Shown here: positions 10,942-30,191 of the stretch, piece by piece
Numbering within the stretch: the stretch's first letter is position 1
Layout of the letters: each line of letters begins with the position of its first letter
From: Escherichia phage vB_EcoM_PhAPEC2
Length of the DNA stretch: 64,000 nt
Sequence record: NC_024794.1
Reading direction: 5' to 3' (one strand)
Translations under genes and position numbers: made by a program
The notes under the pieces: model-generated
What the model saw: the letters and a program-made list of their open reading frames with translations, nothing else
Databases searched by the model: none
Told to the model about the DNA's origin: nothing

Positions 10942-11249
10942 CGTAAAGTCCCTGCAATTGGAATACTAACAATACGGCCTGTGTCCAGGATTCGTTGATA
11001 CAATCTTTGCGTCTCCGCATCTAGTTTAATGTGTTTCATTTCGAGCTTATTAAACCAGAACTTACGCGGAGTTTCGACCATTCTTAGAACTCCCATTTTT
11101 AAATCTGTTTTATACTGTGTTTTCAAAGTATCGAAAACTTTATCTGCAATATCCTTTCTAAAAAATACTGCAGGACGATGCTCATCAAGTGGAACCGGGA
11201 CAGTAAATCCTTCCATATCTCGATAAACTATTGCATATACATAAACCAT
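10938..11249 (-). CDS. hypothetical protein (dda.1 position)
   Basis: 103 aa; ATGA overlap with dda. Confidence 0.55.
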   Translation of the reverse strand: MVYVYAIVYRDMEGFTVPVPLDEHRPAVFFRKDIADKVFDTLKTQYKTDLKMGVLRMVETPRKFWFNKLEMKHIKLDAETQRLYQRILDTGRIVSIPIAGTLR

Positions 11250-11251
11250 AA

Positions 11252-11998
11252 TTAACCTTTAATCAGTTGGAATAATGATGCGCTAAGTGGTAAGCCACGT
11301 TTCAATTTTAATTTACCAATGAAACCAATCTTTTCAAAACGTTGCAGACCTTGGATAACTTTATCATATGTATCGAAAAGCGATTCAGCATCAGTTAATT
11401 TAGTTTTAGTTTTCCAGTCAGAGCCTTTAAGAAGAACGTTGAGTTTAGTAAGTTCATGGCCTTCTGCTTGATGTGAGCCATTAATGCGTGCTTTCAAAGC
11501 AACAATTCTAAGTTTAGATTCGTTAGATAAAGGTTGATTTTTCATCATGTTCGCCATATGCTTAACACGATTTTCACGTTTTGCTCGGATTTTTAAAATA
11601 GTACCATAAACCTTTTTAATTTGGGCCCATTTCTTCTCGTCGAGATTAAGTTTCTCTACTTTACGAGCAGAAGGATTAGCGATACGTCTTGCAATGGCAT
11701 CACGTTTCTCAATAAGTTCTTCTAATGTTAAATCAGAACGAGCCGTGTTATATTTTTTCTTAACTGGGATAACATTACCTTTAATGTAGCCTATATCATT
11801 ATTAAAACGTTCTAAGGATAATTTCTCACCTTCAACAGAGTTATTAAAAGATTCACCTGAGTAAGCGCAGACCTTTTGATCAAGAATGTTTTTAAGGTAA
11901 TTAAAGTCTAAGTTAAAATCCTTAGAGCGTCTCTTCGCAGAAGCCCTGGTGTGGTCGAGACGACGATTGATTTTGTTAATTTTATTATTTGATAACAT
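11252..11998 (-). CDS. srd: hypothetical protein at Srd position
   Basis: 248 aa, basic; assignment by synteny (dda - srd - modA in T4) only. Confidence 0.4.
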   Translation of the reverse strand: MLSNNKINKINRRLDHTRASAKRRSKDFNLDFNYLKNILDQKVCAYSGESFNNSVEGEKLSLERFNNDIGYIKGNVIPVKKKYNTARSDLTLEELIEKRDAIARRIANPSARKVEKLNLDEKKWAQIKKVYGTILKIRAKRENRVKHMANMMKNQPLSNESKLRIVALKARINGSHQAEGHELTKLNVLLKGSDWKTKTKLTDAESLFDTYDKVIQGLQRFEKIGFIGKLKLKRGLPLSASLFQLIKG

Positions 11999-12044
11999 AA
12001 TATTTTCCTCTGTCTTACGGACGTTAAGGTCATTTAGCTGATAA

Positions 12045-12078
12045 GCTTATAATATCATGCCCTCAGGTAGTGTACACT
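12045..12078 (-). promoter_or_regulatory. early promoter upstream of srd-position gene
   Basis: minus strand GTGTAC, 17 nt, TATTAT. Confidence 0.45.
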
Positions 12079-12151
12079 CTTTTTTCATAAAATGCTTTAA
12101 TTTTTTATGTGTTATAATGGTTCTGAGTTCCATCCGGTTATTCCAATTCAG

Positions 12152-12760
12152 TCAGTAACTGACAATAGTCAGATTCCAGATTGTATAACGTCCATCTTGA
12201 ATAATAGAATCTACACGCAGTGTAGTCCCTATAGGGAGCATAAATTCACATTCGTCAGATATAAGTCTAGCATTAGACCGTCTTGTCGCTTCAGGGAAAG
12301 CTCCATTGAACTCACAAGATGGCGCAGCCAGAATCATGTTAAGCATATGTTCACGGAAGTTGAAAGCAAATGGTGCATCTTTGATGCAGAACATATTAAA
12401 TGTTCCGTAAAAATTATACGAAGCAAAGTTACGTGCTACACCGAACACTGGGCTGAAGCTCATTACTCTGTCAAATTTAATAATACTACCAATACCTTTA
12501 TCATCGAGTGTGGCCATAGTTTTCTTAGAGATTCCACGATACATTGTCTCAGGAACAGAAGACGTCCAATTTCTACGAACGATTGAACTTAAATCTTGTT
12601 GGATGCTATCAGGCTTGTTTTCCATACACTGCCATAGTACACTTTGTTCAATGTCGCTGAATTGCTCATCGATTTTGTACTGAAGCATATCTTGATAATC
12701 CGGGCATTGAGCACGACGAACCATTTCTTCAATTTCACACTCGTTATACGGCATAAACAT
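12152..12760 (-). CDS. modA: Mod-type ADP-ribosyltransferase
   Basis: 202 aa; R / S-x-S / E-x-E triad candidates (YRGIS, SFSP, ECEFML); synteny with T4 modA. Confidence 0.6.
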   Translation of the reverse strand: MFMPYNECEIEEMVRRAQCPDYQDMLQYKIDEQFSDIEQSVLWQCMENKPDSIQQDLSSIVRRNWTSSVPETMYRGISKKTMATLDDKGIGSIIKFDRVMSFSPVFGVARNFASYNFYGTFNMFCIKDAPFAFNFREHMLNMILAAPSCEFNGAFPEATRRSNARLISDECEFMLPIGTTLRVDSIIQDGRYTIWNLTIVSY

Positions 12761-12774
12761 TTAGGTTTCTCCTG

Positions 12775-12812
12775 TGGTTGATAAAAGTATAGTATCATCG
12801 TCTGTAGAGTTT
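12775..12812 (-). promoter_or_regulatory. early promoter upstream of modA
   Basis: minus strand GTGTAC-like -35, about 18 nt, TACTAT, then SD GGAGA. Confidence 0.4.
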
Positions 12813-12817
12813 GTACA

Positions 12818-13399
12818 CTAAAAATTCAACATTTTCAAATGAATGATTTTGTATAATCGAGATAAAGGGTCATATTCTAAGTCTTCAATTTCCACAATCT
12901 CAAATCGAGAGATGCCTGAGACCATGTACTCTTGTTCAGATTCAATCATATCTAGGACGTCAACACGCTTTTCTTCCATAACATGCTTAGGGTTCTTTCC
13001 GGCGAGTACAATGTTAACCATGTTTTGGTAGTAATCAAAAATGAATGGAGCATTCCTGAGACTAAGAATAGTGTACGTCTGATATTCCCATCTCCCGGAG
13101 AATTGACGAGCTGTGCTGAAATCAGTTGTGAACGATGTTACTCGTCCAGGAGACCAATGGCATCCAACAGAAAGAAGGGAAAGACGTTCTACTTCTTCTG
13201 GAGTTACACCACGGTAGAGTTCTACTGGTACTGTAGAAGTCATATGCTTACGAACAAGATGGTCTAATTCATAGTGGAAATCCGGGTCTTCCTTAGAATC
13301 GGTGCAAGCCCAGAGAATGTTTTGTTCTTGGCGGGTGAATTTGCTATCAATCAGATTTGTTAGGTATTCACGTTCTTGAAGTTCAGATTGACATGTCAT
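12818..13399 (-). CDS. modB: Mod-type ADP-ribosyltransferase
   Basis: 193 aa; YRGV, FSTAR, EQEYMV motifs; paralogous to preceding ORF. Confidence 0.6.
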   Translation of the reverse strand: MTCQSELQEREYLTNLIDSKFTRQEQNILWACTDSKEDPDFHYELDHLVRKHMTSTVPVELYRGVTPEEVERLSLLSVGCHWSPGRVTSFTTDFSTARQFSGRWEYQTYTILSLRNAPFIFDYYQNMVNIVLAGKNPKHVMEEKRVDVLDMIESEQEYMVSGISRFEIVEIEDLEYDPLSRLYKIIHLKMLNF

Positions 13400-13615
13400 G
13401 ATAGACCTCCATTTAAAGATAAGCCTATCATAACACGAGAGGAGGGAATGTAAACTACTTTTTAAGCTTTCCTACTAAAGGTCCATCAGGACCAGGTTGT
13501 TCTAACATGAATAAGGATGCTTTAAAAAGCAATGTCAACCCTTTCACCATTCGATACCATGTCTCAAAGTCTTTTTCCTTGATTTCTAGTAAGAATTTCT
13601 CTTTAAATTTCTCTT

Positions 13616-13804
13616 TCATTTCCAAGGACTCCATGGTGGAGGGTCGTCATAATAAGAGGCAAGGTCTTTCAGGGCTTCAACAGGTAAACTAAAGCCGTGT
13701 CGTTGTATAATACTATCTAGTTCATCAACAAGTTCACTACGATGCACTTTAGGAGCCTCAACTTCAGGCTCGTCAAACATACTCATAAGGTCCATATTAT
13801 TCAC
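13616..13804 (-). CDS. hypothetical protein
   Basis: 62-aa acidic ORF, overlaps next gene end. Confidence 0.4.
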   Translation of the reverse strand: MNNMDLMSMFDEPEVEAPKVHRSELVDELDSIIQRHGFSLPVEALKDLASYYDDPPPWSPWK

Positions 13805-14261
13805 CTAAATAAAAACTAGGCTGCTCGGAGAATGTTTCTAGCGCTACACCTTTTGTCTTAAAAAATTTCCAAATAGCTCGTTGCAAATGGATTAAATCTG
13901 CTAATGATGTAATAAAGTATTTTTTGGCAAAATACTTATGGTCTCGCTTTTCAAACAGATCTAAACGCTTTTCAGGATTCACATAAACTGCATTTTCAGT
14001 AGATTCATAACCTAAGTCCTTTATGCCTTCTTCAAGACTAAACGGAGAATTTTTAGAACGAGTAATAGCTCCAACTCGCTCTACACGAATTTTGTAACCT
14101 TTAGGAATCTGCAATTTGCAGAATTCTTCTACGATATATTGCGGATTATTTAGACTTTTGTTAATGAGAATAGCTATTTCTAGTGGAGTCTTATCTTCCA
14201 CTGGTATATGTTTAAACGACTTGGCTTCAAGCAAATACATTTTAAATAGCATAGCATCCAT
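13797..14261 (-). CDS. hypothetical protein
   Basis: 154-aa ORF, same strand. Confidence 0.55.
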   Translation of the reverse strand: MDAMLFKMYLLEAKSFKHIPVEDKTPLEIAILINKSLNNPQYIVEEFCKLQIPKGYKIRVERVGAITRSKNSPFSLEEGIKDLGYESTENAVYVNPEKRLDLFEKRDHKYFAKKYFITSLADLIHLQRAIWKFFKTKGVALETFSEQPSFYLGE

Positions 14262-14440
14262 TATAATTTCCTCGATGGTTCACCCATATAAAGTTTTACA
14301 ATACGTTCGCCTTCATCTTCGACGAGCTTCTCTTCATGCTTCTGGAGTTCTTTGACCATTTTCTCTTCAAAAACATCTAACCAATCTTCTGGTTCGACTC
14401 CATCATTCCAGCTTTTAAACCATTTTACTATTCTGTTCAT
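14261..14440 (-). CDS. hypothetical protein
   Basis: 59-aa ORF not in track; ATGA/TAATG coupling on both sides. Confidence 0.4.
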   Translation of the reverse strand: MNRIVKWFKSWNDGVEPEDWLDVFEEKMVKELQKHEEKLVEDEGERIVKLYMGEPSRKL

Positions 14441-14748
14441 TCACAGCTCCCTGAGCTTGAACCACAATCAGAATAACTTGACCCAGAATCACCAGGCCAA
14501 GACGATACGTATGAATGATTATAACTTGAAGAGTTTGAAGCAGACTTAGGACGAACAACTTCTTCCATCATTCCGTCACCGATATATTCCCAACTTTTTT
14601 CGTGTGTATCAGGAATAGGCATCACACCTTCGCCTGGTTTAACAGCAAACAACTTCTTCAGCATCGTAAGCATTAATTGTTCCTCGAACAAAACGAACAC
14701 CGCCATCATCCCAACGGATTTCGGCATTAAATTTGACGTCTTCACCAT
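14437..14748 (-). CDS. hypothetical protein (Ser/Gly/Cys-rich C-terminus); start uncertain
   Basis: 103-aa track ORF overlapping the next ORF in another frame; true start probably an internal Met. Confidence 0.3.
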   Translation of the reverse strand: MVKTSNLMPKSVGMMAVFVLFEEQLMLTMLKKLFAVKPGEGVMPIPDTHEKSWEYIGDGMMEEVVRPKSASNSSSYNHSYVSSWPGDSGSSYSDCGSSSGSCE

Positions 14749-14866
14749 CCATCATGAAAGAATGTACCACAACATCATCATAGTATCCAAGACCGTACTT
14801 TAATGAAACTTCTTGAGCAATCAAAGCACCTAATGTGTTATTAGGTTTAATCCAACGATTTAACAT
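14639..14866 (-). CDS. hypothetical protein
   Basis: 75 aa; SD AAGAGGAGAA; early-type promoter upstream. Confidence 0.5.
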   Translation of the reverse strand: MLNRWIKPNNTLGALIAQEVSLKYGLGYYDDVVVHSFMMDGEDVKFNAEIRWDDGGVRFVRGTINAYDAEEVVCC

Positions 14867-14884
14867 ATTGTTCTCCTCTTGAGT

Positions 14885-14925
14885 AAGTAAGAATATCTTA
14901 ACACAGTTTTTAGTGGTTGTAAACT
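14885..14925 (-). promoter_or_regulatory. early promoter
   Basis: minus strand GTTTAC, 17 nt, weak -10, then SD AAGAGGAGAA. Confidence 0.35.
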
Positions 14926-14934
14926 CTAGAAACG

Positions 14935-14960
14935 AAAAAAGGAATCCCGAAGGATTCCTT
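14935..14960 (-). terminator. intrinsic terminator after soc
   Basis: minus strand AAGGAAUCC-UUCG-GGAUUCCUU followed by UUUUUU. Confidence 0.7.
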
Positions 14961-14967
14961 AAATTAT

Positions 14968-15204
14968 TTAACCGCTTACTGGTGTAGGGGTAAACATTGC
15001 AGCGTTCTTAGTTTTCCAAGTTGCTGCATCAGAAACGACATCAGAATAAGCTGCCTTTTCTGATGGAAAGATTTGGTAATGGGAATCTGCAATTCGATGT
15101 TCGTTTGAATAAATCTCAAACGGTACAGAAACTTCCATACCTTTAACTTCTTTGCCTTCACCAGCCGGACGTGTAAAGGTTTTGATATTAACGTAACCAC
15201 CCAT
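14968..15204 (-). CDS. soc: small outer capsid protein Soc
   Basis: 78 aa; GYVNIKTF...HYQIFPSEKAAYS matches T4 Soc; late promoter TATAAATA about 30 nt upstream; strong terminator downstream. Confidence 0.85.
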   Translation of the reverse strand: MGGYVNIKTFTRPAGEGKEVKGMEVSVPFEIYSNEHRIADSHYQIFPSEKAAYSDVVSDAATWKTKNAAMFTPTPVSG

Positions 15205-15229
15205 AATTAACTCCTTTGTTGTTTAATTA

Positions 15230-15245
15230 CAGGTGTATTTATAAC
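15230..15245 (-). promoter_or_regulatory. late promoter (TATAAATA) for soc
   Basis: exact TATAAATA on the minus strand about 30 nt upstream of the soc ATG. Confidence 0.7.
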
Positions 15246-15249
15246 TTAA

Positions 15250-15771
15250 TCAGTAACCATTATCCTGACGTTCAAAGTTGTGTTGGTTTTTCAAGTAGTA
15301 AAGTTTAAAGATTTCTTCAGCAGAAAGACCCAGACCTTGGAACATATTTAGAACGAAATGCAGAATATCAATCATTTCAAATTTAATTTCAAGCTGGTCT
15401 TCAGGAGACAGTTCATCGATACGACGATTTCGATATTCAGCATGTTGTGCTTTCCATGGCTTCCATACAGAGCTAGCGGCTTTCTCACCATTGCTCATAC
15501 CGCCAAGTGAAGTCAACAATTCACGGAATTCATCATCAATATAATCTTTCTGATTACGCAGCCAATCAACAACATCGCCAGCAGTGGCCAATTCATCAGG
15601 ATGTTTGTTATGTTCAGGCTTGTCATTTGCCAGACGAACCTGTAAAGATTTCTGCATATCAAGCATTACCTGCAGTGGGTCTTTATCTTCGTGAATCAGA
15701 GCATTAAAATAAGCTTCTTCTGCTTTATCAACACCAGAAATAAGTTGTGAACATTCGTTAAAGTGTGCCAT
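15250..15771 (-). CDS. 56: dCTPase/dUTPase (dCTP pyrophosphatase, MazG-like)
   Basis: track ORF 15250..15786; MAHFNEC start as in T4 gp56; conserved EIKFE..DI.HFVLNMF block. Confidence 0.8.
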   Translation of the reverse strand: MAHFNECSQLISGVDKAEEAYFNALIHEDKDPLQVMLDMQKSLQVRLANDKPEHNKHPDELATAGDVVDWLRNQKDYIDDEFRELLTSLGGMSNGEKAASSVWKPWKAQHAEYRNRRIDELSPEDQLEIKFEMIDILHFVLNMFQGLGLSAEEIFKLYYLKNQHNFERQDNGY

Positions 15772-15860
15772 TATTTTTCCTTTCAATTCAGTATAAGAGA
15801 GTTAATTCTAACATTAATTTTATAAAGCGTAATAAATAATAAGGTAACTAAGGAGATATT

Positions 15861-16058
15861 ATGTTTAAACTTCCATCGTTAATCAACGCTATTAAAGGCA
15901 ATAAAAAGAAAACTGCTATCGCCGCAATAGTTGTAGGTGGCATTATTTCATGGAACTTCGGTATCGCACCATTATTAGTTGCTAATGGTATTATAGTTCC
16001 TTCTGTTCCATTGGATACTGTAGTTGATTTGGCCTTTGCTATTATAGGGCTTGTTTAA
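15861..16058 (+). CDS. small hydrophobic membrane protein (plus strand)
   Basis: 65 aa, two predicted TM helices; consensus SD TAAGGAG 7 nt before ATG; sits in 56/61 intergenic space, not antisense to a gene. Confidence 0.45.
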   Translation: MFKLPSLINAIKGNKKKTAIAAIVVGGIISWNFGIAPLLVANGIIVPSVPLDTVVDLAFAIIGLV

Positions 16059-17077
16059 ATCTTAGAATAATGAGATAATCTCATTTTAGCATGCAACCCA
16101 CTTGAAATATTCTGTTTCATATATTCTAAAATTTCTTGTGGTGTTGCATTTTCTTTCATTACCATATCATTCACATCCTTTGAATTCCATGGAGCTCTAT
16201 CCCAGAACATGACACGTTCGCCTGCATCAACTAATCGCTTCATACGAGCTATAGTATCCGGATGCCTAGGTTCATTATCCATTACCCATACCCGACGTTC
16301 TTTAAATGGTACCACATCTAAATCTATTGAGCCGCCTGTAATAGCGATTGCATTGGGTATAAATAAACTATCAATAGGGCCTTCCATTACCCAGACGTCC
16401 CCTTCCTTAACACGTTCAACACCGTAAATTTTTGTTGCAGACTCAAACGCTTTAATAGTGATATATTTCTGAGGAGCATCTTTACGAAGTGCACGTCCTT
16501 GGAATGACTCGGCCTTCCCATCTTTATTAAAAATAGGAATCACTAAACGTGGTTCGGGAATCTCTTTCTTATACGTACCCGGTTGAATCTTGTTGACCAA
16601 TTTAGGCCATTCTAATGTGAACCATAATCTGTTCCATGATTCTTTAGGAATACACCGAGACTTAACATATTTCACAATAGGATGCTCTTCAGGCAGCTTG
16701 TCTAGACGAGAACAAGACGGCAAAGAATTTATAGTCTTTTTCTCTGGCTCCGGTTTAGCTTCAGGAACCTTTTCAATCTTTGGTTCCATTCTAGCTTTTT
16801 CTTTACGAACTTCCATTAGATATTCGCGATAAAGCTCTTCATCATACTCTTTTAAGTATCCAGAAATTGTATTATGATATTGGCAGTTATAACAATGTAC
16901 ATTGCCAGGAGTACCACCGTAATACCATCCGCGGGCTTTCATTGCATCTGTCTGAGAGTCGCCACAAACTGGACAACGAAATGTTAATTTAAATGTGCTT
17001 GAATTATTGATTTGTCTAAAACGAGGGAGGTGAGAAAACGCACGATAAGCAAATTCATTATCTATCCATTCAGCCAT
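16055..17077 (-). CDS. 61: DNA primase
   Basis: 340 aa; zinc ribbon CPVCGDS...CYNC; closely matches remembered T4 gp61. Confidence 0.9.
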   Translation of the reverse strand: MAEWIDNEFAYRAFSHLPRFRQINNSSTFKLTFRCPVCGDSQTDAMKARGWYYGGTPGNVHCYNCQYHNTISGYLKEYDEELYREYLMEVRKEKARMEPKIEKVPEAKPEPEKKTINSLPSCSRLDKLPEEHPIVKYVKSRCIPKESWNRLWFTLEWPKLVNKIQPGTYKKEIPEPRLVIPIFNKDGKAESFQGRALRKDAPQKYITIKAFESATKIYGVERVKEGDVWVMEGPIDSLFIPNAIAITGGSIDLDVVPFKERRVWVMDNEPRHPDTIARMKRLVDAGERVMFWDRAPWNSKDVNDMVMKENATPQEILEYMKQNISSGLHAKMRLSHYSKI

Positions 17078-17116
17078 AGTATTCTCCAGAGGCCTTAAAT
17101 TAATAAGGCCATCATA

Positions 17117-17584
17117 TCACAACTTATTAATATTTACTTTAATTCGCTTTCTTTTCTTGGAAGGAATTTGTTCTGGACCTTTATTTACGACTGCACCTGT
17201 AGTTGTTCCTGATGCAATAGCTTGAGGACTGCCGCCTGAATCACCAGCAACCATATCCTCAAATAAAGGGAGTTCTTTAAATATTTCTTTCTGTTGTTCT
17301 TCCGTAATGTTATAGCGTGAAGCTACAGCACTCCAGGCAGACATCATTGAGGCCATTCCATTAAGACCCGGAACAGTGCTCATCATTCGCTTCATTGAAC
17401 GAACTGAAGCATGAAAAGGTGTATACGCCGCTTTTTCTTCGGGAGTAGAAGGACGTTTAAGAACACTTCCACGTTCATCGATGATTTTGGCGTCGTATGC
17501 TTTCCATTCGGTAAAAGGTTTTTGCATTAGTCGAATAAACTTATATGCGTAAACAGAATCTATTGCAGTGTTAATAATACCCAT
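17117..17584 (-). CDS. hypothetical protein (61.1 position)
   Basis: track ORF 17117..17611; SD AGGAGGT precedes internal Met (MGIINTAID). Confidence 0.55.
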   Translation of the reverse strand: MGIINTAIDSVYAYKFIRLMQKPFTEWKAYDAKIIDERGSVLKRPSTPEEKAAYTPFHASVRSMKRMMSTVPGLNGMASMMSAWSAVASRYNITEEQQKEIFKELPLFEDMVAGDSGGSPQAIASGTTTGAVVNKGPEQIPSKKRKRIKVNINKL

Positions 17585-23638: not shown

Positions 23639-24187
23639 TTAACGGGCCCATTTGATGATTTCTGTAATCAAACCATTACGTTCGCTTGCATTAAATCCTA
23701 TAACTTTGTTAGCACCATCATGATTAAGTAATTGATACGTTTGGATTTTGTTATGAATTGCAAACTCTTCAAAATGTGAAATGACTGTATTAAAACCGAA
23801 TGAAGACAAAGTAATAAGGTCGTCTTCAAAACTTTCAGTCATTTCGTTACGTGTTAAAATAATTGTGAACACATCATGGTTTTGGCAAAGACGAACATAA
23901 TCCTGCTCATAAACATCAAGAACAGAGTCCGCATCTTGTCGAATACGTCCATAAACCCAGTTACTAATATATCCACGGTCTAACAGATAAATCTTAGTAG
24001 GGTCTAAATAATTCAACATCGTTTCGAAACAGCCAACTTCATTTCGAGACTTAACATCGAAACGTCCATCAACTGTTCGTTTAGGGAAATCAATCTTTAC
24101 ATATCTTTCACTAATTTCCATTATGTCATTAATGAAAGTTGTTTTACCGGCATTATCCGGGCCATCTACTAAAATAATTTTAGCCAT
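23639..24187 (-). CDS. P-loop kinase (NMP-kinase fold)
   Basis: 182 aa; Walker A GPDNAGKTT, LLDRGY motif; occupies the slot where T4 has beta-glucosyltransferase. Confidence 0.5.
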   Translation of the reverse strand: MAKIILVDGPDNAGKTTFINDIMEISERYVKIDFPKRTVDGRFDVKSRNEVGCFETMLNYLDPTKIYLLDRGYISNWVYGRIRQDADSVLDVYEQDYVRLCQNHDVFTIILTRNEMTESFEDDLITLSSFGFNTVISHFEEFAIHNKIQTYQLLNHDGANKVIGFNASERNGLITEIIKWAR

Positions 24188-24188
24188 T

Positions 24189-25091
24189 TTATTCCTCGAT
24201 TACGACATCTTCGTATTTAGGTATATTATACGGTGAAGAAATTAAAGCATTAAAGTAGATGAACTCACCAAGACCTGGATGGAATACTTCTTCAGGATTT
24301 TCGAAATATTGAATCTTCGGACGTCCTTTAAGAATTTGATAGTACTCAGTTTTAGTTGGATTAAAAATTCGAATCAGCGCTTCTTCAGGATACTTATTTC
24401 TGTCGAAACTATTATTTGGATCAGTTATATAAAGCGGTTGACCTAATTGAATTGCGCATTCAACAACTTGTTCAAAACGATAGCATGGGTCACTAATTCG
24501 AAATGGATGAAAAATACCATCTAGATGAATAGGAGCCAAATCACCTACAAGACGCTGCATGATGGAAGGACGTATAACTTTCTGAGTTACGATAATCTTA
24601 TTACCATCTGCACCTGCGTTAACCAGCACTTCTTTTTGACGTTCATTCAACACAGTAGTTTGAAGTGAACGATTAACTGACAACATATCGGTTTTTAAGA
24701 ATTCGTCAATATAAAAACGTGGTTTATTAGGGTCTGCCGTGATATTGAAATTGAATTCTACATCAAAAGCGCCGTCATATCCAGTGATATCTGTTATTAG
24801 AAAATCACAATCATAATAAGCAATTAATGAATCAACCACAAATTCATTTTCAGACCAGAAATATTTACGAGTGTTATACGCGTTATCTTTATACCATAAT
24901 GGAACAAACTTAAATTCCGGGAAAAGACGTTCACATTCTTTAATATCAGATGCATTACGTGGATATGTAATCACATCACCTGGATTAGCACGGTGCAAAT
25001 GAAGTTGGAAGTTGCCATCCTTAAGGATAGCATACTGTCCAGTTTCATAAGACCGCATACTCAAAATAGGTACGCGGAATTTATTAGCCAT
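24189..25091 (-). CDS. hypothetical protein (300 aa) in the beta-gt slot
   Basis: TAATG-coupled to gene 42; no motif recognised. Confidence 0.5.
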   Translation of the reverse strand: MANKFRVPILSMRSYETGQYAILKDGNFQLHLHRANPGDVITYPRNASDIKECERLFPEFKFVPLWYKDNAYNTRKYFWSENEFVVDSLIAYYDCDFLITDITGYDGAFDVEFNFNITADPNKPRFYIDEFLKTDMLSVNRSLQTTVLNERQKEVLVNAGADGNKIIVTQKVIRPSIMQRLVGDLAPIHLDGIFHPFRISDPCYRFEQVVECAIQLGQPLYITDPNNSFDRNKYPEEALIRIFNPTKTEYYQILKGRPKIQYFENPEEVFHPGLGEFIYFNALISSPYNIPKYEDVVIEE

Positions 25092-25807
25092 TAGTCAAGA
25101 AATCCTTTAACATAATCAAAATCACGTTCAAACACATGGGCACTTACCATGGTATGAGTATAATCACCAACTTCTACACCGCATTCGTTAGCGATATAAT
25201 GAAGTAATTTTCCTTGGAGATAAAAATCCAACTGCATAACAACAGCACAGTTCTGAGAACGCATATGGCAGTGGGTATAAAGCTTACCATCGCGAATATA
25301 ATAAGTCACTGAGTCAGTACATGGATATTCAAGCGTTTCGTCCGAATCAAGCAAAGCCTGATCAGAACTTTCTAGAATTTGGAACACAACTCTTCGAGAG
25401 TTAGGCTTCTCTTTAAGTTCTTTTAGAAGAGCTGGTAATTGGGCCGCAATGCGAGGACCGTAGAAAGTGTTGAAGTTCGCAGGCAAAACATCTGATTTAG
25501 GTTTAGAAATAAATTTAGCGACATTAGGATATGCCTTAAATGCTTCTTCTGCATCAGTACCACCAGAAATCATAAACTTCCAGAAGTCTTCGGCATATTC
25601 ATAAGAGATGCGGTTAATACGTGGGTCGGTCATTTTGAATGATGATGGAGTGTCAACAACTACTGTCATAGACCCAATTTCATTACAACGTCCAATACGA
25701 GAATCAGTTACGAATTCCGGGTTTTCTAAAATTTCACGATTGACTGCTTTAAATGCGGCTTGAAAATCTGCGGCTTTGATATATTTCATTGTGTTATGTT
25801 TTCCCAT
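25091..25807 (-). CDS. 42: dCMP hydroxymethylase (thymidylate-synthase fold)
   Basis: 238 aa; CTDSVTYYIRDGKLYTHCHMRSQN and AHVFERD align to remembered T4 gp42 (CTNTVQYLIRD...NMRSND, LHVYSRH). Confidence 0.85.
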   Translation of the reverse strand: MGKHNTMKYIKAADFQAAFKAVNREILENPEFVTDSRIGRCNEIGSMTVVVDTPSSFKMTDPRINRISYEYAEDFWKFMISGGTDAEEAFKAYPNVAKFISKPKSDVLPANFNTFYGPRIAAQLPALLKELKEKPNSRRVVFQILESSDQALLDSDETLEYPCTDSVTYYIRDGKLYTHCHMRSQNCAVVMQLDFYLQGKLLHYIANECGVEVGDYTHTMVSAHVFERDFDYVKGFLD

Positions 25808-25849: not shown

Positions 25850-26089
25850 TTATTTGAATTTCTTGGCAATGTTGATATAACGTAAAGCTTCAGAATCTAT
25901 ACTTCCAAGAACACTATGAAGGAATGCATCAGTGTAGTATTCCAATTGAACAGGTTCTTTAATCACTTTAGCCGCTTTGGTTTCAAACAGGCCCATAAGG
26001 GCCTTTTTAAGAATTTGTTCGTTAGTGTTCAGTTTAATAGTCAAAATCTCTTCATTAAGTTTATAATTAAAAGTTTTTCTAGAAATCAT
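25850..26089 (-). CDS. hypothetical protein
   Basis: 79 aa; ATGA-coupled to downstream gene. Confidence 0.45.
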   Translation of the reverse strand: MISRKTFNYKLNEEILTIKLNTNEQILKKALMGLFETKAAKVIKEPVQLEYYTDAFLHSVLGSIDSEALRYINIAKKFK

Positions 26090-27261
26090 TCCGGGTACCT
26101 CAAAGCGTCATCAGAGTTAGTTATATCAATAATAGATATGGAGTTTTCTGCTAACCCGTTTTTAGATAATTGACGTTTATAATACCTTTCACAATATGTA
26201 CACGTTGACCCACAGATTTCATTAGCACAATCAAAATCTGGATGTCTGAACCACCTTTTTTCTAAAAAGCCATCTAACAAAGAGGTTTCAATATTTACTG
26301 TATGTGAAAACTCAGTCTCATTTTCAAGAGTGAAAATAGTCTCTAAAGGCTTCCACAGTTCTAACAAATTACCTTCAAACTTTTCAGAAGCGTATGCTTC
26401 AAGAACTTTCAAAATGTAGTCTGTGCTACCTGTACGTCCTGAAACTTTGAATTGAGTGATACCAATATCATTATAAAGTTTCAAATCTTGTGGACGAACA
26501 AAACGAGTTCTCAACCAGTTAAATGGGTCTGTATCACGAGCTTTAATACAGTGCTGCATTGGATATCCGTTTAAGGATTTAGCATCATCAGCTGTAACAT
26601 CAGTACTATGGAAAATATAGCAAGAGTCACGATAGCTACAATGTGTTGTATACCCTTTACCAGCATTAGAACAGAACTCATTTACAAGAACTTCAAATAT
26701 TATATTGTTCTTATTGCAAAACTCTGCTGCACGCTTCAGGAAAGAAACTGAACGGTTCTTATGAATTCCGCAACAGACCTTTTTGATATTATATTGGTCA
26801 TGCAAGTATTTGATTTGAGTTACAGCATCGACATGTAGAATTGTTGAAACTTCAATCTCAATGTCTTTATTGACTTCACGAACAATTTCCATAACAACAG
26901 GGTTAGCGATAGTAATACGCCATACACCTATTGACCAAAGATACTGAACATAATCCTGAATAGCTTTCTTCTTCCACTCAACTAGTTCTCTTTTTGAACC
27001 AGGATTTATCGTGTTGAGTGTATAGTTAAAGCAAATACCTAATTCGTTACAACGTTTAACGTAATCTTCTAACATCTTTTTGTCAACGTCAGGAAGCCTA
27101 AAATCAGGTCTGGCTGCTACAAAAGCCATTTCTCTTGTAGAGCCGTATACTTCGTTTATCAAGCTATTAGGATAAGTTTTATTGAGCTCTACGATTTTAT
27201 CAAGAAGAGCTAAATCAAAATTCGTTCCAATTTTAAAAGTATTCATTTTTTTGCATCTCAC
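26086..27261 (-). CDS. U32-family-like protein (putative Fe-S enzyme)
   Basis: 391 aa; cysteine cluster EFCSNAGKGYTTHCSYRDSC and KVSGRTGS resembling the U32 KIEGR signature; assignment from motif memory. Confidence 0.45.
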   Translation of the reverse strand: MRCKKMNTFKIGTNFDLALLDKIVELNKTYPNSLINEVYGSTREMAFVAARPDFRLPDVDKKMLEDYVKRCNELGICFNYTLNTINPGSKRELVEWKKKAIQDYVQYLWSIGVWRITIANPVVMEIVREVNKDIEIEVSTILHVDAVTQIKYLHDQYNIKKVCCGIHKNRSVSFLKRAAEFCNKNNIIFEVLVNEFCSNAGKGYTTHCSYRDSCYIFHSTDVTADDAKSLNGYPMQHCIKARDTDPFNWLRTRFVRPQDLKLYNDIGITQFKVSGRTGSTDYILKVLEAYASEKFEGNLLELWKPLETIFTLENETEFSHTVNIETSLLDGFLEKRWFRHPDFDCANEICGSTCTYCERYYKRQLSKNGLAENSISIIDITNSDDALRYPE

Positions 27262-27302
27262 GTTAATTGATGCGATGGTTTTTGCAGGTCTTACTTAAAT
27301 TA

Positions 27303-27689
27303 TTATAGATTCGGTTTATATGATTTAAATGTTTCGAATTCGCCTTTATTCATAAGAGCTTTGAATTCGTCAGGACGCATAGCTTTGTCGTCGATAATCC
27401 AATCATATACTGGTTTATGTGTTAGCAAATTATGGTACTTCAAGCCAATGTTTGCCAAGTTCTGAATCAGACTTGGGAGAATGTCAATTGCTATACGACC
27501 AGGACCTACTGACTTCATACCGCGAGCAGTGTAAAGCGTTATGGTATGCCCTGCATCATACAGGGCATTAATGGCAGACACCATTTCGACGTCTGGTTTG
27601 AAGTTCACGTAATCACGATTGTTATTCCACTCTGTTATACAATCATCGACATCAAAACAAAGATTAAGCATGTTTTCTACACGGTGCAT
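27303..27689 (-). CDS. small HAD-superfamily phosphatase
   Basis: track ORF 27303..27704; HAD motif I FDVDDCIT near N-terminus, later IIDDKA; start probably overlaps upstream stop. Confidence 0.55.
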   Translation of the reverse strand: MHRVENMLNLCFDVDDCITEWNNNRDYVNFKPDVEMVSAINALYDAGHTITLYTARGMKSVGPGRIAIDILPSLIQNLANIGLKYHNLLTHKPVYDWIIDDKAMRPDEFKALMNKGEFETFKSYKPNL

Positions 27690-29374
27690 TAGATTCGTTC
27701 CCATTGATGAGTGATATCGCCACCGATTGGACGATAAGAAACACCAGTTTCTTTATCAGTTAGTACCCATTTACCAGGATTTTTTGTAATCAGAGTAGCC
27801 GTTACAGGTTCTGCTACGTCATAACTAATAGAGCCGTCCTGAAGTACACGGCCCATGTTACGTAATTGCTTAGTCAGAAGTTCCATACCTTTATAATATG
27901 CGGCTACCGCTTTAAGTGGATTATTCTTGAAATAACCACCTAATGCAATCCAGATAATTGCCACAGCCAAATGATGATACTCGTTAAACGAACTCATCTT
28001 TCCATATTTGTAAACTAATGGATTGATGTTAATAGTCACATTACAAGTTGTTTCATCAATAGTAAACTGTCCCCAGGTCGGATTAGCGTTGAATTCATCA
28101 TAACCTGAAACAGCATAAAGCACTTTAGCTTCATCGTACAATTTTGGCCCGTAAATCTTGGTTTCGCCAAAATATCCACGAGGGTCGATAAACTTGACTT
28201 CGCCGTTATCAGTAATCATAGTATTACTGAAGTTAGGGTCACCATGAATAACAGAGTACTGTCCCTGAGAACGGTTATGATAACGAATAAGGTGTTCTAA
28301 AGCTTGTTTCAGCATTGGCTTCAGACGCCCAATCTTAGTGTAGTTCACATGGGTGATTTTACCAAATGAATCAATCAATGGTTGAATGCTTTCACAACGA
28401 TCAATAACTTTCGTATAGAATTCTTTAGTGAAATCACGACGAACAGTTTCAGGACTTACAAAATAAGTGTCTGTGCTGAATTTCAGTGCATCTAAAATTG
28501 CATCAACAATTTGTGGACGAGCAAGACTTGATTTGGATTTAATATATTCAAATGCCGGCTTACCTTTAATGCGTTCCATTTCAAAGTTATTTTCATTAAC
28601 AGAAACTAACTGAGGAACTGAATCTGATTTCACTTTAAGATACCATGAAATCTCATCTTTCTGAAGAGCTCGACCCTGTTCGGTTAATGCGAATTTAGTT
28701 ACAGTTTCTTCACCAATTTCAACTGCATTAAAACTACGATTAAGTTCACGAACTTCATGAGCTTTTTCAAGTTTAGGCATATCACCTAAATCAATTAGAT
28801 TCATAAGCTCTGATTTATTGAATGCGCTGCCGTAAAGGAATTCTACGAAATCACGTCCTTTGCAGTATTCATGAATTTCCTCATCGGTAGAACCCATATA
28901 GAATTCCCAGTCTTTGAACTGATAAATTCCTACAACATTACCACCTGTTGAACCTACGTTAGTGATATTTTCACCGTCGAAATTATATCGACATTCGTCA
29001 CCCTTAACATAGATTGCGTTAACATTCCAAGACCATGAACCAAAATCGGGAATAATATCACACCAGTTAACAATTACATTATGACCGTCTAAATCTTTGT
29101 GTAATTTAGCAAGAGCATAAGCAGAACCGTACGCTTCATCAACTGTACGAATAGTCACATTGAACCCTTCTTGCTCACAATAAGCTCGAACAGTTTCAGC
29201 AAATTTTGAATGAACTACTACAATAATTTCATCTGCGCCAAGGTCAGAATAAATTGTATACAAATTGCTCAGAATAGTGTCTTGTTTATAGTTAACAAGC
29301 ACCTTAGGAATATGATGCGTTATTGGATATAAACGAGTTGCCAATCCAGCACCAAGAATAACAGCTTTTTTCAT
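27689..29374 (-). CDS. bifunctional sugar-1-phosphate nucleotidyltransferase (RmlA-like) / APH-like sugar kinase
   Basis: 561 aa; N-terminal ILGAGLATRLYPIT (G-x-G-T-R-L-x-P-x-T signature); C-terminal HGDPNFSNTMI (Brenner HGD...N kinase loop). Confidence 0.7.
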   Translation of the reverse strand: MKKAVILGAGLATRLYPITHHIPKVLVNYKQDTILSNLYTIYSDLGADEIIVVVHSKFAETVRAYCEQEGFNVTIRTVDEAYGSAYALAKLHKDLDGHNVIVNWCDIIPDFGSWSWNVNAIYVKGDECRYNFDGENITNVGSTGGNVVGIYQFKDWEFYMGSTDEEIHEYCKGRDFVEFLYGSAFNKSELMNLIDLGDMPKLEKAHEVRELNRSFNAVEIGEETVTKFALTEQGRALQKDEISWYLKVKSDSVPQLVSVNENNFEMERIKGKPAFEYIKSKSSLARPQIVDAILDALKFSTDTYFVSPETVRRDFTKEFYTKVIDRCESIQPLIDSFGKITHVNYTKIGRLKPMLKQALEHLIRYHNRSQGQYSVIHGDPNFSNTMITDNGEVKFIDPRGYFGETKIYGPKLYDEAKVLYAVSGYDEFNANPTWGQFTIDETTCNVTININPLVYKYGKMSSFNEYHHLAVAIIWIALGGYFKNNPLKAVAAYYKGMELLTKQLRNMGRVLQDGSISYDVAEPVTATLITKNPGKWVLTDKETGVSYRPIGGDITHQWERI

Positions 29375-29404
29375 GTTGAAGTCCTCATTGGTAAGTAGGA
29401 GTAT

Positions 29405-29433
29405 TGTACACTATTCTAGTTAAAGCATTCATA
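29405..29433 (-). promoter_or_regulatory. MotA-type middle promoter for the nucleotidyltransferase/kinase gene
   Basis: minus strand AATGCTTTA, 12 nt, TACAAT, about 25 nt before the SD. Confidence 0.45.
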
Positions 29434-29559
29434 CTTTGCTTGTAGTCCAATCATAATCCATCCAATTACAAGTGTTGGAATCATTACTGGAGCCGTTAAG
29501 CTCCAGTAGATAGTCATGACAAGCATCAATAGTAAAAGTCCTATTGTTATTGCTTTCAT
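29416..29559 (-). CDS. small membrane peptide
   Basis: 47-aa hydrophobic ORF not in track; ATGA-coupled to the isomerase stop. Confidence 0.35.
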   Translation of the reverse strand: MKAITIGLLLLMLVMTIYWSLTAPVMIPTLVIGWIMIGLQAKYECFN

Positions 29560-30191
29560 TGTTCGCCTCGTAACATGGCACCTAGTGCACCGCCCGGGTG
29601 GAACTTAAGGAAATCATTAGAGGTAAATCCACGCTCAGACGAAAGGTTGATAGCGAACGTATCGATAAGCGCTAACAACAATGTAGTAGACATTGTCGGA
29701 GCTAAAGAGTTCTCGTCAACTTCTACCGCGATACCGGTACAGAACGTATAATCAAAAAGAGCTTCGTATTCTTGTGGAATGTCAGGGTTACAATGTAACA
29801 GAATCTGTTTAACCTGAGGACGAATCATACGAAGATGCTTAGCCACGCCTATCATTTCTTCAGTTTTACCAGAACGACTAATATGAATCAACACATCATT
29901 AGGCGCAATGAATCCTGCATCACCGTGAGAATAATGCCCAGTGTTCAAGTACATACTAGGGATACCGAGTGAAGCAAATGTCTCAGAAGCTTTAGTTGCA
30001 ATATTAGCATTCTTACCAACACCTGTAATAATTACTCGGCTTTCATAATTACTAAGTCCCGGGCGTCGAAGAGTTTCTAGAATAGCGTTATAACGAGCAG
30101 GGTTTTGACTAATTACTTTGGCCATAGCGGCCAAAGAAGAAGCTTGTTTTATGATTGCGTCAATAGCGATAGTAATAGGAGTAGTTTTCAT
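29556..30191 (-). CDS. SIS-domain sugar-phosphate isomerase, KdsD/GutQ-like arabinose-5-phosphate isomerase without CBS domains
   Basis: 211 aa; GVGKNANIATKASETFASLGIPS, HGDAG, ISRSG, LAPTMSTT, RGFTSNDF, HPGGALG all parallel E. coli KdsD SIS domain. Confidence 0.75.
   Translation of the reverse strand: MKTTPITIAIDAIIKQASSLAAMAKVISQNPARYNAILETLRRPGLSNYESRVIITGVGKNANIATKASETFASLGIPSMYLNTGHYSHGDAGFIAPNDVLIHISRSGKTEEMIGVAKHLRMIRPQVKQILLHCNPDIPQEYEALFDYTFCTGIAVEVDENSLAPTMSTTLLLALIDTFAINLSSERGFTSNDFLKFHPGGALGAMLRGEQ

What the first reader, a model, noticed from the sequence alone, without database searches (positions are those of the whole stretch)
25850..30191. Sugar-nucleotide pathway inserted between dCMP hydroxymethylase (42) and DNA polymerase (43)
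T4 has only imm-type small genes here. This phage has five genes plus a membrane micro-ORF: a KdsD-like SIS isomerase (ribulose-5-P to arabinose-5-P), a minimal HAD phosphatase, an RmlA-like sugar-1-P nucleotidyltransferase fused to an APH-like sugar kinase, a U32-like Fe-S protein and a 79-aa unknown. Isomerase, phosphatase, kinase and nucleotidyltransferase form a complete route from a pentose phosphate to an NDP-pentose, the same logic as ADP-heptose synthesis (GmhA/HldE/GmhB). Its place next to the hmC-forming enzyme, and the absence of alpha-/beta-gt, suggest the product is the donor for hmC glycosylation (arabinosyl-hmC type). I recall arabinosyl-hmC being reported for RB69-type phages, but not a worked-out donor pathway.
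Basis: partly seen in the sequence, partly recalled or inferred. Interest (0 to 1): 0.85.

Follow-up and report, generated by a model that had tools for sequence, protein, structure and literature searches.

The report
Known phage DNA-arabinosylation cluster, unassigned hydroxylase
This is the already published gene cluster that RB69-type phages use to make UDP-arabinose and attach it to 5-hydroxycytosine (not hydroxymethylcytosine) in their DNA, but one gene in it, a U32 iron-sulfur protein, has no assigned role and probably makes the hydroxycytosine without oxygen.

Summary
The six ORFs exist as described, on the minus strand. The window is a Mosigvirus whose proteins here are 98-100% identical to RB69's (orf79 90%). 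Profile searches confirm a KdsD-like SIS isomerase, a HAD phosphatase, a fused nucleotidyltransferase/kinase and a U32 protein.

The pathway idea is right but already published. It was proposed in 2018, and NAR 2026 reports that He et al. 2026 showed it for phage HY126 (AfhE, AfhF): Ru5P, Ara5P, Ara-1,5-P2, Ara-1-P, UDP-Araf.

The acceptor is wrong. RB69 DNA carries arabosyl-5-hydroxycytosine, and the neighbouring "gene 42" is an FMN/O2-dependent 5-hydroxy-dCMP synthase.

The open item is the U32 protein (RB69 gp50), which no paper I could read assigns to hydroxylation.
- It is more conserved than the DNA polymerase.
- Acinetobacter and JS98-type phages, which carry the same cluster, lack it.
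- In 39 divergent uncultured-phage loci it sits with the same glycosyltransferase, kinase and sugar genes. None has the TS-like hydroxylase within about 10 kb.
- In 27 of 58 U32 loci a chorismate mutase gene lies within 622 bp. Its product, prephenate, is the oxygen donor of U32 hydroxylases.

I infer an O2-independent dCMP 5-hydroxylase (p about 0.6). This is untested.

The parts
29556..30191 (-). SIS-domain D-arabinose-5-phosphate isomerase (RB69 gp55 equivalent); ribulose-5-P to arabinose-5-P. It lacks the CBS pair of KdsD.
   Evidence: PF01380 4.8e-10; TIGR00393 KpsF/GutQ 5e-32; KdsD NF008141 2e-30, covering profile positions 47-202 of 328 only; phrog_5670; 98.1% identical to RB69.
29416..29559 (-). 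47-aa two-helix membrane micro-ORF (RB69 ORF054c). Probably an imm-region gene and not part of the pathway.
   Evidence: phrog_3610; 100% identical to RB69; RB69 note 'similar to T4 42-imm intercistronic region'; 55% homolog next to imm in JS98; absent from DLP3, Thanatos, HMGUkp2 and phiP4-3.
27689..29374 (-). Bifunctional AfhE-type enzyme: C-terminal APH/choline-kinase-like Ara5P 1-kinase and N-terminal sugar-1-P uridylyltransferase (RB69 ORF53_52c).
   Evidence: PF00483 8.5e-10 at residues 3-99, weak kinase families at residues 308-409; GAGLATRL at 8, HGDPNFSN at 377, IDP at 396; phrog_4098; 99.5-99.7% identical to RB69; function as described in PMC13326640 section 27, citing He 2026.
27303..27704 (-). 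Minimal HAD phosphatase (AfhF type; RB69 gp51): Ara-1,5-P2 to Ara-1-P.
   Evidence: TIGR01689 capsule biosynthesis phosphatase 4.3e-13; DVD at 18-20, T59, K97, D105-D106; 99.2% identical to RB69.
26086..27261 (-). U32-family Fe-S protein (RB69 gp50). Inferred O2-independent, prephenate-dependent pyrimidine-C5 (dCMP) hydroxylase. Probable start ATG 27246.
   Evidence: PF01136 7.4e-11; AF2 pLDDT 91 with best PDB match 5d88, a U32 protein; 10 invariant Cys including C208x5C214 and C345x4C350x3C354x2C357; comparative genomics.
25850..26089 (-). 79-aa ORF of unknown function (RB69 ORF049c). Its start overlaps the U32 stop. Relatives hold a chorismate mutase downstream of U32, but this ORF is not one.
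   Evidence: phrog_8601 only; no Pfam hit, including CM_2; confined to Mosigvirus plus weak Yersinia and Serratia matches; 89.9% identical to RB69, the fastest-evolving gene of the block.
25091..25807 (-). Thymidylate-synthase-fold 5-hydroxy-dCMP synthase (RB69 gp48), FMN- and O2-dependent.
   Evidence: PF00303 2.4e-15; 99.2% identical to RB69 gp48; activity and 18O2 labelling in PMC13326640 section 24.
24189..25091 (-). DNA arabinosyltransferase 1 (RB69 gp46:47, phrog_3891).
   Evidence: phrog_3891 4.7e-155; 98.9-99.1% identical to RB69; PMC13326640 Table 1.
23639..24187 (-). Thymidylate-kinase-like nucleotide kinase (RB69 gp45, phrog_761).
   Evidence: phrog_761 5.7e-45; 98.9% identical to RB69; accompanies U32 in about 30 of 39 divergent loci.

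Best explanation
The locus is the Mosigvirus (RB69-type) cytosine-arabinosylation cluster.

Taken from published work on RB69, DLP3 and HY126, and applied here by 98-100% identity: the SIS isomerase converts host ribulose-5-P to D-arabinose-5-P. The C-terminal kinase of the 561-aa fusion phosphorylates C1. The HAD phosphatase removes the 5-phosphate. The N-terminal nucleotidyltransferase then makes UDP-arabinofuranose. Glycosyltransferases, one of them just downstream, transfer arabinose onto 5-hydroxycytosine in DNA. That base enters DNA as 5-hydroxy-dCTP, and 5hodCMP is made by the adjacent thymidylate-synthase-fold enzyme, which needs FMN and O2.

Inferred here (p about 0.6): the U32 Fe-S protein is a second, O2-independent 5-hydroxylase of dCMP. 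It would take the oxygen from prephenate, as RlhA, TrhP and UbiU/V are proposed to do, so that an enteric phage can still make its modified base in an anoxic host. This would parallel the aerobic and anaerobic ribonucleotide reductase pairs of T4-type phages (my own knowledge).

The 47-aa membrane ORF is probably an imm-region gene. The 79-aa ORF remains unassigned.
For: Identity and domains:
- Window proteins are 98-100% identical to RB69 gp45-gp55 (orf79 89.9%). The domain calls are confirmed.
- Published chemistry and enzymology come from PMC13326640 (sections 24, 25, 27), PMC6024577 and PMC13390438. The BASEL phage record already annotates UDP-arabinose biosynthesis.

U32 inference:
1. Pfam U32 hit, a confident AF2 TIM-barrel model whose best PDB match is the U32 structure 5d88, and 10 invariant cysteines. 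Characterised U32 proteins are linked to O2-independent, prephenate-dependent hydroxylation, including cytidine C5 (RlhA) and uridine C5 (TrhP) (PMC5727448, PMC6599085, PMC10990095, 10.1101/587956).
2. gp48 demonstrably uses O2 (PMC13326640).
3. DLP3 and JS98 carry the cluster without U32. DLP3 DNA has the same arabinosyl-5hoC base, so U32 adds no chemical feature to the product.
4. U32 is the most conserved protein of the region, at 79-88% identity across genera against 64-74% for DNA polymerase.
5. In 39 divergent uncultured-phage loci, U32 is embedded with the same GT (26 loci), Tmk-like kinase (about 30), AfhE-like enzyme (17), SIS (10-11) and a KdsC-type HAD (16). None of the 39 has a TS-like hydroxylase within about 10 kb, and the only TS hit is one canonical ThyA.
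6. A chorismate mutase gene or a DAHP-synthase/chorismate-mutase fusion lies within 622 bp of U32, on the same strand, in 27 of 58 loci, 16 of them T4-like relatives. Two more loci have DAHP synthase alone. No chorismate mutase occurs in the U32-less loci.
Against: - No experiment bears on U32.
- He 2026 and Mahler 2025 could not be read, so they may already assign or exclude a role.
- JS98-type E. coli phages lack U32, so host oxygen lifestyle does not fully predict its presence.
- The window phage itself has no chorismate mutase and would have to rely on host prephenate.
- The canonical CX6CX15CX3/4C motif is only partly matched (C208x5C214x23C238).
- Similarity to RlhA and TrhP is weak (hhalign 22% over 297 columns, probability 28%).
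- A TS-like gene could lie more than 10 kb away in the large uncultured contigs.
- No U32 protein has yet been shown to hydroxylate anything in vitro (PMC10990095).
Confidence: 0.8

Rival explanations
1. One reading: the pathway makes an NDP-arabinose that glycosylates hydroxymethylcytosine produced by a gp42-type dCMP hydroxymethylase.
For: The TS-family neighbour resembles T4 gp42. Thomas 2018 (PMC6024577) originally reported arabinosyl-hmC.
Against: NMR and MS on RB69, DLP3 and phage NP show an ether link to 5-hydroxycytosine. RB69 gp48, 99.2% identical to the window protein, makes 5hodCMP with 18O from O2 (PMC13326640). PMC13390438 states that the hmC assignment was erroneous.
Confidence: 0.03
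2. The U32 protein works on the sugar side, for example as a reductase, epimerase or other tailoring enzyme in UDP-arabinose synthesis, as in the BASEL annotation and 'sugar or heterocycle reductase' in NAR 2026 Table 1.
For: It lies between the phosphatase and the hydroxylase genes. It is annotated this way in MZ501047 and in PMC13326640 Table 1. In divergent loci it often follows AfhE and the HAD gene.
Against: According to PMC13326640, He 2026 found AfhE and AfhF responsible for making UDP-arabinose from Ara5P. DLP3 has the same arabinosyl-5hoC base without U32. Eight divergent loci have the order Tmk-GT-U32 with no sugar-activation genes nearby. The chorismate mutase linkage has no rationale in pentose chemistry.
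Confidence: 0.15
3. The U32 protein is an RNA hydroxylase like TrhP or RlhA that modifies phage or host tRNA or rRNA to tune translation. It would sit in the DNA-modification block by chance.
For: The only characterised nucleic-acid U32 enzymes act on RNA (PMC6599085, PMC5727448). T4-type phages encode tRNAs (my own knowledge). Prephenate dependence would explain the chorismate mutase equally well.
Against: U32 is adjacent to the DNA glycosyltransferase, the dNMP-kinase-like gene, dCMP deaminase, dUTPase/DCD and DNA polymerase genes in at least six distinct gene orders. It occupies the slot of the TS-like hydroxylase, which is missing in those loci.
Confidence: 0.1
4. The U32 protein is a peptidase or collagenase, as database names say.
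For: Pfam and PHROG names and many GenBank annotations.
Against: The family name is historical. Studied members are Fe-S proteins linked to hydroxylation (10.1101/587956, PMC10990095). The ten invariant cysteines and the nucleotide-metabolism context do not fit a protease.
Confidence: 0.02

Closest known systems
RB69 gp45-gp55, DLP3 gp76-gp83 and HY126 Afh cluster (arabinosyl-5-hydroxycytosine DNA)
   Same: Same genes in the same order, 98-100% protein identity to RB69 (orf79 89.9%). Isomerase, AfhE-type kinase/uridylyltransferase, AfhF-type phosphatase, TS-fold 5hodCMP synthase, GT and kinase are all present.
   Different: Nothing material. Here the 561-aa and 300-aa ORFs are intact, whereas NC_004928 splits them. 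The papers I could read give gp50 (U32), gp49 and gp54 no tested role.
ADP-heptose pathway GmhA / HldE / GmhB
   Same: Same order of chemistry: SIS isomerase, anomeric kinase giving a bisphosphate, HAD phosphatase removing the distal phosphate, then nucleotidyltransferase. Kinase and transferase are fused in one protein.
   Different: Different protein families. The kinase is APH/choline-kinase-like rather than PfkB (the HldE family assignment is from my own knowledge), and the transferase is RmlA/GlmU-like and N-terminal. The substrate is a pentose and the carrier is UDP.
U32 hydroxylases RlhA (ho5C2501 in 23S rRNA), TrhP (ho5U34 in tRNA) and UbiU/UbiV
   Same: Pfam U32 domain, TIM barrel, conserved cysteines, the FK(I/V)xGR motif and a CX5-6C element aligned to RlhA. 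The proposed reaction (pyrimidine C5 hydroxylation without O2, prephenate as O donor) is the one attributed to RlhA and TrhP.
   Different: A separate subfamily of about 360 aa (471 clusters at E<=1e-30), found mostly on phage-like contigs in the cases I examined. It has an extra invariant C-terminal CX4CX3CX2C motif. The proposed substrate is a deoxynucleotide, not RNA or a quinone. It is often paired with a phage-encoded chorismate mutase.
T4 gp42 with alpha-gt and beta-gt (glucosyl-hmC)
   Same: A TS-fold enzyme modifies dCMP before replication, and a GT decorates the base in DNA after replication. The genes lie in the same 41-43 replication region.
   Different: The base is 5-hydroxy-C, not 5-hydroxymethyl-C. 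The cofactor is flavin with O2, not folate. The donor, UDP-arabinofuranose, is made by the phage, whereas T4 uses host UDP-glucose.
KdsD / GutQ / KpsF arabinose-5-phosphate isomerases
   Same: SIS catalytic domain, best NCBIfam matches (5e-32 and 2e-30).
   Different: 211 aa with no tandem CBS domains. Scores fall below the equivalog cut-offs.

Membership tests
Phage arabinosyl-5-hydroxycytosine (Afh / RB69 gp45-55) cluster | TS-fold 5hodCMP synthase adjacent to the sugar genes | tested here: met
   Window 25091-25807 is 99.2% identical to RB69 gp48; PF00303 2.4e-15.
Phage arabinosyl-5-hydroxycytosine (Afh / RB69 gp45-55) cluster | Bifunctional Ara5P kinase / UDP-Ara pyrophosphorylase (AfhE type) | tested here: met
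   561-aa ORF 99.5-99.7% identical to RB69 ORF53_52c; NTP_transferase N-terminus and HGDPNFSN kinase loop.
Phage arabinosyl-5-hydroxycytosine (Afh / RB69 gp45-55) cluster | HAD phosphatase (AfhF type) and SIS Ara5P isomerase | tested here: met
   TIGR01689 4e-13 and TIGR00393 5e-32; 99.2% and 98.1% identical to RB69.
Phage arabinosyl-5-hydroxycytosine (Afh / RB69 gp45-55) cluster | phrog_3891 DNA arabinosyltransferase | tested here: met
   Window 24189-25091, phrog_3891 4.7e-155.
Phage arabinosyl-5-hydroxycytosine (Afh / RB69 gp45-55) cluster | Virion DNA contains mono- or di-arabinosyl-5hoC | not testable with these tools
   Known for RB69, Bas46/47 and NP (PMC13326640, PMC13390438). Inferred for this phage from 98-99% DNA identity to related Mosigvirus records.
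Peptidase-U32 family Fe-S hydroxylases (RlhA/TrhP/UbiU/UbiV) | Pfam PF01136 domain above the gathering score, with the U32 TIM-barrel fold | tested here: met
   42.2 bits against a cut-off of 22.4; AF2 pLDDT 91, top Foldseek PDB hit 5d88 at E 1.6e-7.
Peptidase-U32 family Fe-S hydroxylases (RlhA/TrhP/UbiU/UbiV) | Four conserved Cys in a CX6CX15CX3/4C-type motif that binds a [4Fe-4S] cluster | tested here: inconclusive
   Ten invariant Cys. C208x5C214 aligns with the CX6C of RlhA, but the downstream spacing differs (x23 to C238) and an extra CX4CX3CX2C sits at the C-terminus.
Peptidase-U32 family Fe-S hydroxylases (RlhA/TrhP/UbiU/UbiV) | O2-independent hydroxylation that depends on prephenate | not testable with these tools
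   Indirect evidence only: a chorismate mutase or DAHP-synthase-CM fusion lies within 622 bp of U32 in 27 of 58 loci, and two further loci have DAHP synthase alone.
KdsD/GutQ arabinose-5-phosphate isomerase (equivalog) | SIS domain followed by tandem CBS domains; score above the NCBIfam cut-off | tested here: not met
   106 bits against a cut-off of 505. Only profile positions 47-202 of 328 are matched, and the protein ends at 211 aa. It works like KdsD but is a truncated relative.
HldE-type bifunctional heptose kinase/adenylyltransferase | PfkB-family kinase fused to a cytidylyltransferase-family transferase | tested here: not met
   The Pfam hits are NTP_transferase/NTP_transf_3 and APH-like kinases (Fructosamin_kin, EcKL, RIO1), not PfkB. 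It is analogous, not homologous. The HldE family assignment is from my own knowledge.
T4 gp42 dCMP hydroxymethylase | Folate-dependent formation of 5-hydroxymethyl-dCMP | not testable with these tools
   The RB69 ortholog (99.2% identical) makes 5-hydroxy-dCMP with FMN and O2 (PMC13326640), so membership is rejected on published data.

The most novel reading that the evidence does not exclude
RB69 gp50 and its roughly 470-cluster subfamily would be the first U32 enzymes that act on a DNA precursor. They would be prephenate-dependent, O2-independent 5-hydroxy-dCMP (or dUMP) synthases. They would be the sole hydroxylase in many uncultured phages, including jumbo phages, which also bring their own chorismate mutase or DAHP synthase to supply the oxygen donor. 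In enteric T4-like phages they would be the anaerobic twin of the flavin/O2 enzyme.
Probability: 0.55. Interest if true: 0.8.

Novelty: already known. Interest (0 to 1): 0.45.

Why it matters
The sugar-donor pathway itself is settled, so confirming it here adds nothing. The U32 inference would matter in three ways.
1. It would explain how gut phages keep their protective DNA modification when the known hydroxylase has no O2.
2. It would give the U32 field, which still lacks any in vitro assay (PMC10990095), a soluble small-molecule substrate (dCMP) on which to test prephenate-dependent hydroxylation.
3. It would give chorismate mutase and DAHP synthase genes in these phages a concrete role as cofactor-supply genes for DNA hypermodification. 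It would also flag dozens of uncultured phages as carriers of glycosylated hydroxypyrimidines.

Tried and rejected
- orf79 as the U32 partner or a diverged chorismate mutase: rejected. It shows no similarity to Thanatos TH1_066, no CM_2 hit, and Yersinia TG1 has both an orf79-like ORF and a true CM.
- The DAHP-synthase-like neighbour as a KDO8P synthase feeding a KDO-type sugar, which was tempting because SIS and KdsC-like HAD genes co-occur: rejected. DAHPS models score 1e-59 to 1e-70 against 1e-17 for KDO8PS, the KPR[ST] motif is present and KANRS absent, and the gene is fused to chorismate mutase.
- Strict correlation of U32 with facultatively anaerobic hosts: only partly holds. None of the 57 Acinetobacter phage records with AfhE has U32, but E. 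coli Dhakavirus JS98 also lacks it.
- PDB sequence search with U32: no hit.
- Promoter and terminator scan: no more sites than in shuffled sequence.
- hhalign in global mode against UbiU, UbiV and TrhP failed to align. Only RlhA aligned, and weakly.
- He 2026 and Mahler 2025 are not in the paper library.
Full report
**Observation**

Profile searches confirm each domain:
- The 211-aa protein is a SIS domain of the KpsF/GutQ/KdsD type (TIGR00393 5e-32) without CBS domains.
- The 133-aa protein is a HAD phosphatase (TIGR01689 4e-13). D18-x-D20, T59, K97 and D105-D106 are visible in the sequence.
- The 561-aa protein has an N-terminal sugar-1-P nucleotidyltransferase (PF00483 8.5e-10; GAGLATRL) and a C-terminal APH/choline-kinase-like domain (HGDPNFSN at 377, IDP at 396).
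- The 391-aa protein is Peptidase_U32 (PF01136 7.4e-11).
- The 79-aa and 47-aa ORFs match only PHROGs of unknown function.

The region is not compositionally distinct. A promoter/terminator scan finds no more sites than in shuffled sequence.

**Source**

The 4.3-kb block is 95-99% identical to about 150 Mosigvirus genomes. Its proteins are 98-100% identical to RB69 gp45-gp55, except orf79 at 89.9%. The window keeps intact the 561-aa and 300-aa ORFs that the RB69 reference splits through sequencing errors (PMC6024577, PMC13326640).

**What is already known**

- Thomas et al. 2018 (PMC6024577) found arabinose on RB69 DNA. They proposed ORF055c and ORF53_52c, in the module between polymerase and UvsX, as UDP-arabinose genes.
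- The BASEL phage Bas47 record annotates the same genes as 'UDP-arabinose biosynthesis'.
- Lee et al. 2026 (PMC13326640) showed by MS and NMR that RB69 and Acinetobacter phage DLP3 carry mono- to tri-arabinosylated 5-hydroxycytosine with an ether link. They showed that the TS homolog (RB69 gp48) makes 5-hydroxy-dCMP, binds FMN and incorporates 18O from O2.
- The same paper summarises He et al. 2026 on phage HY126. AfhE (kinase plus pyrophosphorylase) and AfhF (Mg-dependent phosphatase) convert Ara5P through Ara-1,5-P2 and Ara-1-P to UDP-Araf.
- PMC13390438 confirms 5-ara-dC and 5-ara-ara-dC in another Mosigvirus and calls the hmC assignment erroneous.

The acceptor (hmC) and the identity of 'gene 42' are wrong.

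The 47-aa membrane ORF is RB69 ORF054c, annotated as similar to the T4 42-imm intercistronic region. It lies next to imm in JS98, so it most likely belongs with the immunity genes.

**The unassigned gene**

In the papers I could read, RB69 gp50 (U32) is called 'peptidase', 'enzyme involved in UDP-arabinose biosynthesis' or 'sugar or heterocycle reductase'. The NAR discussion cites the RlhA and TrhP papers as unrelated pyrimidine hydroxylation routes and does not connect them to gp50. Those enzymes are themselves U32 proteins.

Characterised U32 members (RlhA for ho5C2501 in rRNA, TrhP for ho5U34 in tRNA, UbiU/V for ubiquinone) are [4Fe-4S] proteins tied to O2-independent hydroxylation. Prephenate has been shown to be the oxygen donor for UbiU/V.

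**Properties of the phage U32 protein**

- An alignment of 36 homologs has ten invariant cysteines: C163, C182, C197, C208, C214, C238 and a C-terminal C345x4C350x3C354x2C357.
- The AF2 model is confident (pLDDT 91). Its best solved match is the only U32 structure, 5d88.
- Sequence similarity to the E. coli U32 proteins is weak. A global profile alignment to RlhA (22% over 297 columns, probability 28%) lines up TLNT, the CX5-6C element and FK(I/V)xGR.
- The subfamily holds 471 clusters at E<=1e-30.

**Comparative genomics**

1. U32 occurs in 220 phage records, all at least 80% identical. The hosts named in the search output are Enterobacterales or, for the Thanatos phages, Shewanella. The AfhE-type enzyme occurs in 372 records, including 57 Acinetobacter phages.
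2. DLP3 and JS98 carry the cluster without U32. DLP3 DNA has the same arabinosyl-5hoC base (PMC13326640), so U32 contributes nothing visible to the product.
3. U32 is 79-88% identical across genera where DNA polymerase is 64-74% and AfhE is 43-73%.
4. Metagenomic homologs (50-58% identical) lie on phage-like contigs in replication or nucleotide-metabolism modules.
5. A scan of IMG/VR gave 47 more loci. Every T4-like U32 locus examined has the TS-like hydroxylase beside U32. None of the 39 divergent loci has it within about 10 kb; the one TS hit is a canonical ThyA. These loci nevertheless carry the same GT (phrog_3891, 26 loci), the Tmk-like kinase (about 30), the AfhE-like enzyme (17), SIS (10-11) and a KdsC-type HAD (16). 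The genes appear in at least six different orders. U32 therefore occupies the functional slot of the hydroxylase.
6. The gene next to U32 is often a prephenate-supply gene:
   - a standalone AroQ chorismate mutase in six jumbo-phage contigs;
   - a DAHP-synthase/chorismate-mutase fusion in five loci;
   - a DAHP synthase core in two loci.
7. Sixteen T4-like relatives have a small ORF annotated 'hypothetical' right after U32 that is a chorismate mutase (CM_2, 1e-8 to 1e-11). They include Thanatos TH1_066, Serratia X20, Proteus phiP4-3, Yersinia TG1, Pectobacterium PM2 and Enterobacter CIP9.
8. In all, 27 of 58 U32 loci have a CM gene within 622 bp on the same strand. The U32-less loci have none.

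Chorismate mutase makes prephenate. I found no paper in the held library that links U32 to phage DNA modification.

**Interpretation**

The best reading is that U32 is an O2-independent, prephenate-dependent C5 hydroxylase of a pyrimidine deoxynucleotide, most simply dCMP. The regular presence of a dedicated NMP-kinase-like gene supports a nucleotide-level substrate. In enteric T4-like phages it would back up the O2-dependent gp48. In many uncultured phages it would be the only hydroxylase. I put this at about 0.6.

**Caveats**

- The window phage itself has no chorismate mutase. It has orf79 in that slot, which is not a CM.
- JS98-type coliphages lack U32.
- The cysteine motif is non-canonical.
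- The large contigs were seen only to about 10 kb either side of U32.
- Two key papers could not be read.

**Verdict**

- The finding as written is already known.
- The value added here is a specific, testable function for the one conserved gene in the block that has no assigned role in the papers I could read.

Noticed in passing
L004:14561-14818; L017:11158-11502; L016:11548-11922; L027:11357-11668; L020:11325-11564; L021:11167-11403: Small ORFs annotated 'hypothetical' directly after the U32 gene in T4-like phages of Shewanella, Serratia, Proteus, Yersinia, Pectobacterium and Enterobacter are AroQ chorismate mutases (Pfam CM_2, 1e-8 to 1e-11, above the gathering score).
   Followed up: yes
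L050, L051, L054, L055, L057, L058, L060 (IMG/VR contigs of 148-295 kb), around 9900-17200: Large uncultured-phage contigs carry the order U32, chorismate mutase (or a DAHPS-CM fusion), GT phrog_3891, AfhE-like (absent in L057), KdsC-type HAD and Tmk-like kinase. No TS-like hydroxylase lies within 10 kb. These phages probably carry a glycosylated hydroxypyrimidine in their DNA.
   Followed up: partly
L010:5777-14179: U32 lies with a TAGT-type glycosyltransferase, a Gly_transf_sug protein, dUTPase/DCD and a UDP-galactopyranose mutase. This suggests a galactofuranose-type base modification built on a hydroxyl group made by U32.
   Followed up: no
L006:8001-15428 (also L007): A bacterial-looking contig (dockerin GH43 nearby) has two U32 paralogs with a 5'-deoxynucleotidase, a PnuC-like transporter, a deoxynucleoside kinase, a radical SAM/SPASM protein and a nucleoside 2-deoxyribosyltransferase. 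It may be a cellular pathway acting on modified deoxynucleosides.
   Followed up: no
window 26086-27261: U32 is more conserved across phage genera (79-88% identity) than the DNA polymerase (64-74%) or UvsX (64-88%) of the same genomes. Its annotated GTG start (27261) is probably wrong, because homologs begin at the ATG at 27246 (MNTFK).
   Followed up: yes
window 29416-29559: The 47-aa membrane ORF equals RB69 ORF054c, noted as similar to the T4 42-imm intercistronic region. It lies beside imm in JS98. The RB69 record annotates only 36 aa of it.
   Followed up: partly
window 27689-29374 and 24189-25091: Both ORFs are intact here (561 and 300 aa), whereas the RB69 reference NC_004928 splits each in two (ORF052/053 and ORF046/047). 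This agrees with the published view that those splits are sequencing errors.
   Followed up: yes
L002 (JS98) and L015 (Klebsiella HMGUkp2): These phages lack the SIS isomerase, and their AfhE-type enzyme is only 42-43% identical to the window's. They may rely on host KdsD or activate a different sugar.
   Followed up: no
L041-L062, family f3 (e.g. L058:16572-17174, L049:9338-9964): A 201-aa family found in 16 divergent loci, with no Pfam or NCBIfam hit, has HAD motifs of the KdsC/YrbI type (DCDGVxTDG, GDSxxD). It usually follows the AfhE-like gene and is a likely non-orthologous replacement of the AfhF phosphatase.
   Followed up: partly
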